Assembly: GCA_001791305.1 (NCBI GenBank)
Contig: MGEI01000004.1
Span: 129,804-193,803, forward strand
DNA: 64,000 nt
From: Candidatus Uhrbacteria bacterium RIFCSPLOWO2_01_FULL_47_17
GTDB lineage: Bacteria; Patescibacteriota; Patescibacteriia; UBA9934; GWF2-40-263
Direction: 5' to 3'
The position numbers and the translations under genes were made by a program. Under the pieces are notes generated by a model. The model saw only the letters and a list, made by a program, of their open reading frames with translations. It did no database searches and was not told the origin of the DNA. Positions 43,625-43,978 of the stretch are shown piece by piece (position 1 is the first letter of the stretch; each line of letters begins with the position of its first letter).

Positions 43625-43978
43625 TCCGAGGTAGCTCAGCGGCAGAGCGGCTCGCTGTGAACACGTTCTCTTGCATATAATGTTATGTAAGTGAAAATTC
43701 CATATCGCAGCTTCCGATAGAAATATCGGAATGATCTCAAGGTGAATTGCTGGAAGCCCTCGCGCAAGCAAGGTAATCAGCAGCCAAGCTTTGTTCGAAA
43801 GAGCATTGAAGGTTCAGAGACTATCCCTAACGGGAGTACAATTTATCGTCTGATAAATTGGAAGCGCCTTGCATCCTCGCTCGCAAGAGACGGATGAAGA
43901 TATAGTCCACGCCGTCGGGAAACCGATGGGTTAAGTGTAACGAGATGGTCGCGGGTTCGATCCCCGCCCTCGGAGCCA
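43625..43978 (+). tRNA. intron-containing tRNA, most likely tRNA-Asn (GTT): exon 1 43625-43658, group I intron 43659-43937, exon 2 43938-43978 (tRNA-Thr TGT is the alternative junction)
   Basis: 5' half TCCGAGG-TA-GCTC-AGCGGCA-GAGC-G-GCTCG-CTGT and 3' half TAA-CGAGA-TGGTC-GCGGG-TTCGATC-CCCGC-CCTCGGA-G-CCA give a perfect cloverleaf once 279 nt are removed from the anticodon loop; U1-A72 with G73 as in bacterial tRNA-Asn; splice sites placed by the 5'-exon-ends-in-U / intron-ends-in-G rule. Confidence 0.7.
43659..43937 (+). ncRNA. group I self-splicing intron (IC3-like, as in other bacterial tRNA anticodon-loop introns)
   Basis: Interrupts the tRNA anticodon loop; contains AGCCAAGC and GAAGGTTCAGAGACTA ... 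TAGTCC (P7 pairing GACTA/TAGTC) plus GGGAAACC elements recalled from Azoarcus/Anabaena tRNA introns; ends in G. Confidence 0.6.

What the first reader, a model, noticed from the sequence alone, without database searches (positions are those of the whole stretch)
43625..43978. Group I intron (279 nt) in the anticodon loop of a tRNA, probably tRNA-Asn(GUU), with a free-standing HNH endonuclease gene 78 nt downstream
Removing 43659-43937 restores a canonical 76-nt tRNA. Its features match bacterial tRNA-Asn: U1-A72, U8, A9, G73, loop CUGU|UAA giving anticodon GUU. An alternative junction gives UGU (Thr). The insert carries elements I recognise from IC3 tRNA introns (Azoarcus tRNA-Ile, Anabaena tRNA-Leu), namely AGCCAAGC, GAAGGUUCAGAGACUA...UAGUC and GGGAAACC, and it ends in G. 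Bacterial tRNA introns are known for Leu(UAA), fMet, Ile(CAU) and Arg; an Asn host would be unusual. The adjacent HNH protein (44056-44607) is outside the intron; it could be a homing-type nuclease or part of an island integrated at this tRNA.
Basis: partly seen in the sequence, partly recalled or inferred. Interest (0 to 1): 0.7.

Follow-up and report, generated by a model that had tools for sequence, protein, structure and literature searches.

The report
Self-splicing intron in tRNA-Asn gene
The tRNA-Asn(GUU) gene of this groundwater Patescibacteria (Candidatus Uhrbacteria) genome is interrupted between anticodon bases 35 and 36 by a 279-nt group I intron, a correct call but one of a class that is already published and shown to splice in vitro.

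Summary
Rfam Intron_gpI matches 43660-43929 at 73.1 bits. Removing 43659-43937 gives a 75-nt tRNA-Asn(GUU).

Both splice sites are fixed by comparison with about 147 related tRNA-Asn introns. The guide sequence GCAG (43707-43710) pairs with C32-U35, with a U.G wobble pair at the 5' site. A two-pair P9.0 helix next to the terminal G forms in 49 of 49 introns. It forms in 0 of 49 at the rival tRNA-Thr(UGU) junction.

The fold is well supported: 92% of cells pair and 37 pairs show compensatory changes. Two extra hairpins between P7 and P3' (P7.1 and P7.2) make it IA-like, not IC3.

The host is Candidatus Uhrbacteria (Patescibacteria). This class is already described by Williams 2020 ("Asn.4Ug") and Nakagawa et al. 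2026, who showed in vitro splicing of two such introns.

Relatives often carry a 100-120 aa HNH homing gene in the P1 loop. The window keeps only a 48-nt relic of it.

The free-standing HNH gene belongs to a different HNH family. It has no homologue beside 98 other Asn-intron loci, so it is probably not the intron's homing enzyme.

The finding is ordinary and interest is low.

The parts
43597..43602 (+). Perfect TATAAT box 22 nt upstream of the tRNA 5' end. TTGCAT lies 17 nt further upstream (43574-43579). Possible promoter of the tRNA precursor.
   Evidence: Read from the sequence. The consensus scan did not list it because TTGCAT matches TTGACA at only 3 of 6 positions. This part is an inference.
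43625..43658 (+). 5' exon of tRNA-Asn(GUU): positions 1-35, ending ...C32 U33 G34 U35.
   Evidence: ARAGORN on the spliced sequence. The same exon end, CTGT, occurs in 56 genome loci and 92 metagenome loci.
43659..43937 (+). Group I intron, 279 nt, with U at -1 (43658) and the terminal G (omegaG) at 43937.
   Evidence: Rfam RF00028 73.1 bits; covariation; splice-site tests.
43659..43706 (+). Enlarged P1 loop of 48 nt (relatives have 6-10 nt). It is a relic of an intron-encoded HNH homing endonuclease gene. It keeps the GAAC..GTTC hairpin, TATAAT (43676-43681) and ATG (43685-43687) followed at once by TAA. A possible remnant of the C-A-N-C-H codons lies at about 43691-43705.
   Evidence: Comparison with ORF-bearing relatives. 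The leader similarity exceeds all 300 shuffles on the mean score. The tail similarity is marginal, with 8 of 300 shuffles as good.
43707..43710 (+). Internal guide sequence GCAG. It pairs with exon C32-U35 (43655-43658), with U35.G43707 as the wobble pair at the 5' splice site. In this copy P1 is lengthened by G31-C43711, G43659-C43706 and A43660-U43705.
   Evidence: GCAG is invariant and sits directly 5' of P2 in all Asn introns. The first intron base pairs with the base 5' of GCAG in 46 of 49 introns, using five pair types. The minimum-energy fold reproduces P1 and P2.
43712..43731 (+). P2 hairpin UUCCGAUA-GAAA-UAUCGGAA.
   Evidence: All 8 pairs show compensatory changes across relatives (helix 3).
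43738..43744 (+). P3 5' strand CAAGGUG. It pairs with 43865-43871 (CGCCUUG).
   Evidence: 100% paired in 15 sequences, with one covarying pair (helix 4).
43748..43813 (+). P4-P5-P6 domain. P4 is 43748-43753 with 43777-43782. P5 is 43758-43773 with a GCAA loop. P6 is 43783-43785 with 43811-43813.
   Evidence: P4 is 100% paired with four covarying pairs (helices 5-8).
43819..43823 (+). P7 5' strand GACUA. It pairs with 43903-43907 (UAGUC). In group I introns this helix holds the guanosine-binding site.
   Evidence: Invariant in all 15 aligned sequences (helix 9). Conserved J8/7 and P7 motif GAAGAUAUAGUCC.
43824..43860 (+). P7.1 (43824-43835, UCCC-UAAC-GGGA) and P7.2 (43839-43860). These two extra hairpins lie between P7 and P3' and are the IA-type feature.
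   Evidence: Two of 4 pairs in P7.1 and all 9 pairs in P7.2 show compensatory changes (helices 10-11). The same elements are in the consensus structure line of Williams' alignment.
43873..43895 (+). P8 hairpin.
   Evidence: Three of the 4 base pairs tested covary (helix 12).
43909..43936 (+). P9.0 (43909-43910 with 43935-43936) enclosing the P9 hairpin (43912-43929, GAAA loop). P9.0 places G43937 as omegaG.
   Evidence: P9.0 forms in 49 of 49 introns with 9 pair combinations, and in 0 of 49 at the Thr junction. P9 has six covarying pairs.
43938..43978 (+). 3' exon of tRNA-Asn: U36 A37 A38 through to G73 and the encoded CCA.
   Evidence: The exon start TAA is shared by all relatives.
43984..44049 (+). 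Two tandem hairpins (43984-44011 and 44012-44049) fill the spacer between the tRNA and the HNH gene. The first is nearly identical in a relative whose HNH protein is only 77% identical. Role unknown; a terminator, a processing site or a translational control element are possible.
   Evidence: Folding energy -33.1 kcal/mol, z -4.7, 0 of 200 shuffles as good. Conservation in L138.
44056..44607 (+). Free-standing HNH nuclease gene, 183 aa: an N-terminal HNH motif, a coiled middle part and a C-terminal CxxC...CxxC zinc ribbon. It is not part of the intron and probably has no role in its mobility.
   Evidence: Pfam HNH. At least 285 homologues of about 185 aa occur in varied contexts without a tRNA or intron. 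It shares only the HNH motif with the intron-encoded HNH proteins. No homologue lies beside other Asn introns.

Best explanation
The tRNA-Asn(GUU) gene of a Candidatus Uhrbacteria (Patescibacteria) genome is split between U35 and U36 by a 279-nt group I ribozyme. No second tRNA-Asn gene lies in the window.

Inferred mechanism. The precursor is transcribed from upstream of 43625. The intron guide sequence GCAG (43707-43710) pairs with anticodon-loop bases C32-U35 to form P1, with a U35.G wobble pair. An external guanosine bound in P7 attacks after U35. P9.0 then brings the terminal G43937 into the same site, and the freed 3'-OH of U35 attacks after G43937. This joins U35 to U36 and recreates the CUGUUAA loop.

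Structure. The core is P3-P9 with two extra hairpins, P7.1 and P7.2, which is the IA type.

History. The 48-nt P1 loop is what remains of an HNH homing endonuclease gene that many relatives still carry at that place. This copy is therefore a non-mobile intron kept because precise splicing is needed to make tRNA-Asn.

The HNH gene 77 nt downstream is a separate gene of another HNH family. It is not the intron's homing enzyme.

Shown here: the core, both junctions, the structure, the family distribution and the lack of an HNH link. Inferred: the catalytic steps, which follow established group I chemistry and published in vitro splicing of two other introns of this kind, and the origin of the relic.
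For: Rfam RF00028 at 73.1 bits. Splicing in silico gives tRNA-Asn with U1-A72, G73 and anticodon GUU.

56 genome loci and 92 metagenome loci have the same CTGT|...G|TAA arrangement. In many of them the Thr alternative would need a terminal U.

GCAG is invariant next to P2. The P1 extension pairs in 46 of 49 introns. P9.0 pairs in 49 of 49 against 0 of 49 at the rival junction.

92.3% of cells pair, against 35-44% for slid controls, and 37 pairs show compensatory changes. The minimum-energy fold gives the same P1 and P2.

The host name comes and the lineage.

Published work: Asn.4Ug in Williams 2020. Nakagawa 2026 reports in vitro splicing with sequenced ligated exons and an omegaG-to-C control, subgroup IA, and HNH homing genes in four Asn introns.

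Relic: ORFs of 100-120 aa in the P1 loops of relatives (phrog_2255 at 1.6e-30), decayed intermediates, and leader similarity above all 300 shuffles.

HNH unrelated.
Against: No RNA data exist for this organism, so splicing of this particular copy is inferred. J2/3 (UGAUCU) departs from the A-rich consensus UGAAAAA of relatives. The anticodon stem has a G27.A43 mismatch. Neither is known to block function. The 3' part of the proposed relic is only marginally significant (8 of 300 shuffles). I could not check the rest of the genome for a second, intron-less tRNA-Asn gene. The closest HNH homologue (77% identity) also lies just downstream of a tRNA-Asn 3' end, so a local functional link is not strictly excluded.
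Confidence: 0.93

Rival explanations
1. The host is tRNA-Thr(UGU), with the intron at 33/34 (43657-43935). This is what ARAGORN calls on the unspliced DNA when introns are allowed.
For: ARAGORN -i calls the window Thr(tgt) i(33,279). The alternative junction also has a U at -1 and a G at the terminal position in this copy.
Against: In 18 of 49 relatives the base at that alternative terminal position is not G, and P9.0 forms in 0 of 49 at that junction. No GG(C/U) guide sequence for ...GCU is present in the intron 5' region (read from the sequence). The tRNA body has U1-A72 and G73 like all Asn relatives. This two-base miscall is documented as a tool artefact and was resolved by sequencing spliced products of a related intron (PMC13011429).
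Confidence: 0.02
2. Collaborative homing. The free-standing HNH nuclease cuts intron-less tRNA-Asn alleles in trans, so the intron, which lacks its own homing gene, and the adjacent HNH gene spread together.
For: The two lie 77 nt apart on the same strand. The closest homologue (77% identity, L138) also follows a tRNA-Asn 3' end, with a conserved spacer. The idea that free-standing nucleases can target intron insertion sites in phages is recalled from memory and was not checked here.
Against: None of 98 other Asn-intron loci with at least 700 nt of downstream sequence encodes a homologue. Five more distant homologues lie beside terminase, restriction-modification, recombinase or HD genes, with no group I intron and no adjacent tRNA; two tRNA genes lie more than 3 kb upstream in one locus. 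Mobile relatives of this intron use a different, intron-encoded HNH family. The synteny with L138 can be explained by common descent.
Confidence: 0.05
3. The HNH gene and the low-GC genes downstream (about 44.0-50.3 kb) form a horizontally acquired island inserted at the tRNA-Asn gene, unrelated to the intron.
For: GC content falls to 0.38-0.41 across 44-50 kb against 0.44-0.50 nearby. Most genes there have no Pfam family. HNH homologues occur in mobile or defence-type surroundings.
Against: No integrase or recombinase lies in the region. The tRNA 3' end has no second copy anywhere in the window, even allowing 3 mismatches. No flanking direct repeat was found. There are no PADLOC system hits beyond generic HNH similarity. 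The arrangement is identical in all nine contigs.
Confidence: 0.2
4. The intron is a decaying, inactive ribozyme and the split tRNA is a pseudogene.
For: The homing gene has been lost. J2/3 departs from the family consensus. The anticodon stem has a G.A mismatch.
Against: Every helix of the family consensus can form in this copy, and it carries all 89 columns that are invariant in the 15-sequence alignment. The acceptor stem is 7/7 and CCA is encoded. The sequence is conserved, at most one base different, across nine contigs from different samples. No other tRNA-Asn lies in the window. In complete Patescibacteria genomes the intron-bearing copy is commonly the only one.
Confidence: 0.04

Closest known systems
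Group I introns at position 35/36 of tRNA-Asn(GUU) in Patescibacteria (Nakagawa, Amikura, Omae, Suzuki, mSystems 2026, PMC13011429; 'Asn.4Ug' of Williams 2020, bioRxiv 10.1101/2020.01.27.920355)
   Same: Same host tRNA, same insertion site (CUGU|UAA), U at -1 and a terminal G, same host group, the same ARAGORN miscall as Thr(UGU) 33/34, an IA-type structure with P7.1 and P7.2, and HNH homing genes in some members. Williams' seed sequence Pam37.Asn.4Ug also has GCAGC directly before the last hairpin ahead of P3 and ends ...auaagug.
   Different: This copy is at most about 75% identical in its core to any relative I retrieved. It carries a 48-nt relic of the homing gene in the P1 loop. Williams' seed alignment pairs the exon of Pam37 with a proximal 'ugua'. 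My comparison of 49 introns instead supports the invariant GCAG next to P2 as the guide sequence.
Classical IC3 tRNA introns (Azoarcus tRNA-Ile(CAU) at 36/37, cyanobacterial tRNA-Leu(UAA) at 34/35)
   Same: A self-splicing group I ribozyme in the anticodon loop, a short P1 built from anticodon-loop bases, and similar P6-J6/7-P7 sequences (AGCCAAGC...GAAGGU.YAGAGACUA).
   Different: A different insertion site and host tRNA. The window intron has P7.1 and P7.2 between P7 and P3', which the IC3 seed sequences lack. The published subgroup for introns at 35/36 is IA, not IC.
Free-standing homing endonucleases beside intron-bearing genes in phages ('collaborative homing'; recalled from memory, not checked here)
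   Same: A nuclease gene lies next to, but outside, a group I intron that lacks its own endonuclease gene.
   Different: There is no co-occurrence across the intron family (0 of 98 loci). The nuclease family occurs mostly without introns.

Membership tests
Group I intron (Rfam RF00028) | Covariance-model score at or above the curated gathering score | tested here: met
   73.1 bits against 50, E 1.2e-16, full model 1-253.
Group I intron (Rfam RF00028) | Conserved core helices P3-P9 supported by compensatory changes | tested here: met
   64 pairs, 92.3% paired, 37 pairs with changes on both sides. Slid controls give 35-44%.
Group I intron (Rfam RF00028) | U.G wobble pair at the 5' splice site in P1, and a terminal G (omegaG) at the 3' splice site | tested here: met
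   U43658.G43707 in the CUGU/GCAG helix, which is invariant in relatives. G43937 is placed by P9.0, which forms in 49 of 49 introns.
Group I intron (Rfam RF00028) | Guanosine-dependent self-splicing | not testable with these tools
   Shown in vitro for one Patescibacteria tRNA-Asn intron and one tRNA-Asp intron at 35/36 (PMC13011429), but not for this copy.
tRNA-Asn 35/36 intron class (Asn.4Ug; Patescibacteria) | Host is tRNA-Asn(GUU) with the intron between U35 and U36 | tested here: met
tRNA-Asn 35/36 intron class (Asn.4Ug; Patescibacteria) | Host organism belongs to the Patescibacteria | tested here: met
   The identical protein is named Candidatus Uhrbacteria bacterium RIFCSPHIGHO2_12_FULL_47_12. 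Its lineage is the Patescibacteria group.
Subgroup IA | P7.1 and P7.2 hairpins between P7 and P3'; formal assignment by subgroup covariance models | tested here: inconclusive
   Both hairpins are present and covary. The subgroup models used in PMC13011429 are not available here. That paper assigns 25 of 28 introns at 35/36 to IA.
Subgroup IC3 (classical bacterial tRNA introns) | P7 joined to P3' by a 2-nt junction with no inserted hairpins, as in the Azoarcus and cyanobacterial seed sequences (GA in 9 of the 10 Leu.3, Arg.5, fMet.2, Thr.5, Met.2, Arg.3, Ile2.5 seeds, AA in Bbo3.Arg.5Ug) | tested here: not met
   37 nt forming two hairpins lie between P7 and P3' (43824-43860).
Intron-encoded HNH homing endonuclease (as in relatives) | An intact ORF inside the intron | tested here: not met
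   The P1 loop is 48 nt and reads ATG then TAA. Relatives carry ORFs of 100-120 aa there.
HNH endonuclease (Pfam PF01844) for ORF 44056-44607 | Pfam score above the curated cut-off | tested here: met
   37.8 bits against 21.4, and HNH_5 at 36.5 against 27.5.
Homing endonuclease serving this intron (ORF 44056-44607) | Recurrent association with the intron or its insertion site across relatives | tested here: not met
   0 of 98 Asn-intron loci have a homologue downstream. Five more distant homologues have no group I intron and no adjacent tRNA. Only the 77% homologue keeps the synteny.
Genomic island integrated at a tRNA gene | An integrase gene, plus a direct repeat of the tRNA 3' end at the far border | tested here: not met
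   No integrase in the gene list. No second copy of the tRNA 3' end. No suitable direct repeat.

The most novel reading that the evidence does not exclude
The free-standing HNH nuclease, conserved just downstream of tRNA-Asn in at least two Uhrbacteria-like lineages, has taken over the role of the lost intron-encoded homing enzyme. On this reading it cuts intron-less tRNA-Asn alleles in trans, which would be collaborative homing in a bacterial chromosome. The conserved double hairpin in the spacer would couple its expression to the tRNA transcript.
Probability: 0.05. Interest if true: 0.55.

Novelty: new member of a known kind. Interest (0 to 1): 0.15.

Why it matters
It matters mostly for annotation. 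Standard tRNA finders miss this gene, or call it tRNA-Thr(UGU). That makes a Patescibacteria genome look as if it lacks tRNA-Asn and lowers completeness estimates. This point is already made in the 2026 paper.

The locus adds one more example, and it shows a late stage of the homing-endonuclease life cycle: the gene is lost, the leader relic is kept, and the ribozyme is retained because the tRNA depends on it.

The comparative data gathered here also pin down the guide sequence (GCAG next to P2) and P9.0 for the whole Asn class. They show ORF-bearing Asn introns in genomes labelled as belonging to other phyla.

None of this changes the present understanding of group I introns.

Tried and rejected
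1. The Rfam alignment's own P1 and P2 (43664-43700) are poorly paired. I rejected them in favour of P1 = CUGU/GCAG and P2 = 43712-43731 on comparative grounds.

2. A proximal guide sequence (UGU with GCA at 43673-43675, by analogy with Williams' alignment of Pam37) is rejected. It is not conserved, whereas GCAG next to P2 is invariant and its extension covaries.

3. P10: no consistent pairing between the 3' exon start UAA and the bases 5' of GCAG. I did not pursue it.

4. The nine contigs that carry the identical HNH protein gave no variation for comparison.

5. Global low-gap-penalty alignments of the P1 loop to long relatives were over-fitted. I replaced them with local alignments and shuffle controls.

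6. A search for an att-type repeat of the tRNA 3' end, for direct repeats and for defence-system matches found nothing.

7. The consensus promoter scan did not list the TATAAT upstream of the tRNA because the -35 hexamer is weak.

8. A paper search for 'group I intron' plus 'tRNA-Asn' returned only organelle papers. The relevant papers came from later searches.

9. No metagenome or genome relative closer than about 75% core identity was found.

Full report
**Observation**

Rfam's group I intron model matches 43660-43929 on the + strand over its full length, at 73.1 bits (gathering score 50, E 1.2e-16). ARAGORN in default mode sees no tRNA there.

Deleting 43659-43937 gives a 75-nt tRNA that ARAGORN calls tRNA-Asn(GTT). 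It has a 7/7 acceptor stem, U1-A72, G73 and an encoded CCA. Deleting 43657-43935 instead gives tRNA-Thr(TGT). The tRNA is 75 nt, not 76, and 77 nt separate it from the HNH start codon.

The locus is identical, or differs by one base, in nine contigs from different samples and MAGs. It is therefore not an assembly artefact.

**Organism and context**

The HNH protein is 100% identical to a protein of 'Candidatus Uhrbacteria bacterium RIFCSPHIGHO2_12_FULL_47_12'. That organism belongs to the Patescibacteria group.

The surroundings are chromosomal: dnaG, rpoD, a second sigma factor, an HhH-GPD glycosylase on the other strand, a ribose-phosphate diphosphokinase-like gene, then the split tRNA and the HNH gene. 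After these come several genes without known families, then NUDIX, MsrA, HD, SET and UvrD genes.

**Relatives**

With ARAGORN in intron mode and a re-check of the junctions, 55 of them plus the window are tRNA-Asn genes with the arrangement ...CTGT | intron ...G | TAA.... An Asn host is therefore common in this intron class.

**Splice sites**

Many relatives end ...YTTG|TAA. For these the Thr alternative would need a U at the terminal position. Across 49 distinct genome introns, the base at that alternative position is G in only 31.

In every Asn intron the sequence GCAG lies directly 5' of the hairpin that precedes P3. GCAG pairs with C32 U33 G34 U35 and puts U35 in a U.G wobble pair, which is the usual mark of a group I 5' splice site. 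The first intron base pairs with the base 5' of GCAG in 46 of 49 introns, using five pair types, so P1 continues past the splice site.

At the other end, the two bases after P7 pair with the two bases before the terminal G in 49 of 49 introns, in nine combinations. This is P9.0. At the Thr junction the same test gives 0 of 49.

In the window this means P1 is 43654-43660 paired with 43705-43711, and the terminal G is G43937. The minimum-energy fold of 43650-43745 gives the same P1 and P2 (z -3.8).

**Structure**

I aligned 15 introns of the window's subtype. I then wrote the helices from the window sequence and counted pairs.
- 92.3% of 935 cells form standard pairs, against 35-44% when the 3' partners are slid by one to three columns.
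- 37 of 64 pairs show changes on both sides.
- No shuffle out of 500 reaches any of the observed measures.
- P2, P4, P7.1, P7.2, P8, P9 and P9.0 all covary.
- P3, P6 and P7 are almost invariant.

The two hairpins between P7 and P3' (43824-43835 and 43839-43860) are absent from the classical IC3 seed sequences. They are present in the Asn, Lys.2, Phe.2, Leu.1 and tmRNA seeds of Williams' alignment. The window copy carries all 89 invariant columns of the alignment. It departs from the nearly invariant positions mainly in J2/3 (UGAUCU instead of UGAAAAA) and at one J8/7 position, where it carries the base of the general Rfam consensus.

**The P1 loop**

Short relatives have 6-10 nt between the splice site and GCAG. 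The window has 48 nt.

Fourteen genome introns and 36 metagenome introns are about 540-600 nt long. Their P1 loops hold an ORF of 100-120 aa with the motif C..CGY..C..ALEFHHL..KDFGIS..RSW..KC.LLCANCHREVH. This ORF scores at or just below the Pfam HNH threshold and matches the phage HNH family phrog_2255 at 1.6e-30. Its 3' end reads through GCAG, P2, P3 and P4. Several copies are truncated or frameshifted, and some introns keep only fragments (L121, L152).

The ORF-bearing forms start GAAC..GTTC, then a TATAAT-like box, then ATG a few bases later. The window loop reads GAACACGTTC TCTTGCA TATAAT GTT ATG TAA. Its mean local-alignment score against 45 such leaders exceeds all 300 shuffles. The remaining GTGAAAATTCCATAT resembles GTGCAAATTGCCATAT, the C-A-N-C-H codons, but only marginally (8 of 300 shuffles as good). 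I read the loop as a relic of a deleted homing endonuclease gene. The leader part is well supported and the tail part is suggestive.

**The free-standing HNH gene**

ORF 44056-44607 is a clear HNH protein. It belongs to a family of at least 285 proteins of about 185 aa. It shares only the catalytic motif with the intron-encoded HNH proteins (E 0.029 in a pairwise test).

No homologue is encoded in any of the 240 related loci. Among the 147 other tRNA-Asn intron loci, 98 have at least 700 nt of downstream sequence, and none has an HNH-like ORF there.

Five homologues at 56-61% identity lie in other settings: next to phage terminase and portal genes, a serine recombinase, a MerR/resolvase region, a restriction-modification system, or an HD gene. 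None has a group I intron or an adjacent tRNA; two tRNA genes lie more than 3 kb upstream in L134.

Only the closest homologue (77% identity, a 1.9-kb contig) is preceded by a tRNA-Asn 3' end and the same spacer. Shared descent explains that. A role in homing of this intron is therefore unlikely.

An island integrated at the tRNA is not shown either. GC content falls to 0.38-0.41 downstream, but there is no integrase, no repeat of the tRNA 3' end and no defence-system match.

**Comparison with the literature**

Williams (2020, bioRxiv 10.1101/2020.01.27.920355) extended the four classical intron-bearing bacterial tRNA types to 21. The seed alignment includes Pam37.Asn.4Ug, a tRNA-Asn intron after loop base 4 with a U at -1 and a terminal G.

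Nakagawa et al. (mSystems 2026, PMC13011429) report the following:
- Fifteen tRNA-Asn(GUU) genes with group I introns at 35/36 in 95 complete Patescibacteria genomes.
- ARAGORN and tFind often call these genes Thr(UGU) 33/34 because of a two-base shift.
- One tRNA-Asn and one tRNA-Asp precursor splice accurately in vitro. The ligated exons were sequenced, and a mutant with the terminal G changed to C served as control.
- 25 of 28 introns at 35/36 are assigned to subgroup IA.
- Four Asn introns carry HNH homing genes.

The window locus fits this description in every respect that I could test.

**Verdict**

The 'IC3' flavour and the claim that an Asn host is unusual are not right. The HNH neighbour is most likely unconnected to the intron. 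The thing is one more member of a published and experimentally validated class, so interest is low.

The small additions from this work are:
- comparative proof of the guide sequence and of P9.0 for the class;
- the relic of the homing gene in this copy;
- ORF-bearing Asn introns in genomes labelled Acidobacteriota, Nitrospirota, Deltaproteobacteria and Gammaproteobacteria.

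Noticed in passing
window 43984-44049: The 77-nt spacer between tRNA-Asn and the HNH gene folds into two tandem hairpins (-33.1 kcal/mol, z -4.7). The first is nearly identical in L138, although the T arm of the tRNA and the HNH protein (77% identity) have diverged. No U-tract follows. Function unknown.
   Followed up: partly
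L031, L032, L063, L086, L045, L051 (intron P1 loops): tRNA-Asn 35/36 introns with intact HNH ORFs of 108-120 aa occur in MAGs labelled Acidobacteria, Deltaproteobacteria, Pyrinomonadaceae and Gammaproteobacteria. Decayed copies occur in Nitrospira MAGs. PMC13011429, which used only complete genomes, found such ORF-bearing 35/36 IA introns only in Patescibacteria. Errors in MAG binning were not excluded.
   Followed up: partly
L100, L031, L063, L106, L032 (3' ends of the intron ORFs): The intron-encoded HNH ORF does not stop before the ribozyme. Its last 15-25 codons (...HAGLQLPRVTAVEKSGEFREP) are read from the guide sequence GCAG, P2, J2/3, P3 and P4. The same bases therefore serve as both protein tail and ribozyme core.
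   Followed up: partly
L017-L019, L034, L040, L054, L057-L059, L064, L077, L081 and others: About 30 loci from Gammaproteobacteria and Burkholderiales that ARAGORN calls Gln(CUG) or Arg(CCG) have exons ...GACUCAU|...G|AAUCC. They are most simply read as tRNA(CAU) (Ile2 or Met) with the intron at 36/37, the classical Azoarcus site. Their introns nevertheless have the P7.1-type core captured by my pattern.
   Followed up: no
window 44000-50300: GC content falls to 0.38-0.41 across the genes downstream of the tRNA, which mostly have no known family. Exceptions are an HD-domain protein at 47413-47982 (phrog_990, 6e-21) and a small protein at 46689-47162 matching phrog_29674. This may be a variable or acquired region, but it has no integrase and no att repeat.
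   Followed up: partly
L003, window position 43643: One of the nine otherwise identical contigs has C to A at 43643, in the D loop of the tRNA. This was the only population variant seen across the tRNA, intron and spacer.
   Followed up: no
window 43676-43681; leaders of L039, L086, L156, L236: A TATAAT box 3-10 nt upstream of the ATG is conserved in the P1-loop leaders of ORF-bearing relatives, and it survives in the window's relic. It might be an internal promoter for the homing endonuclease gene.
   Followed up: no
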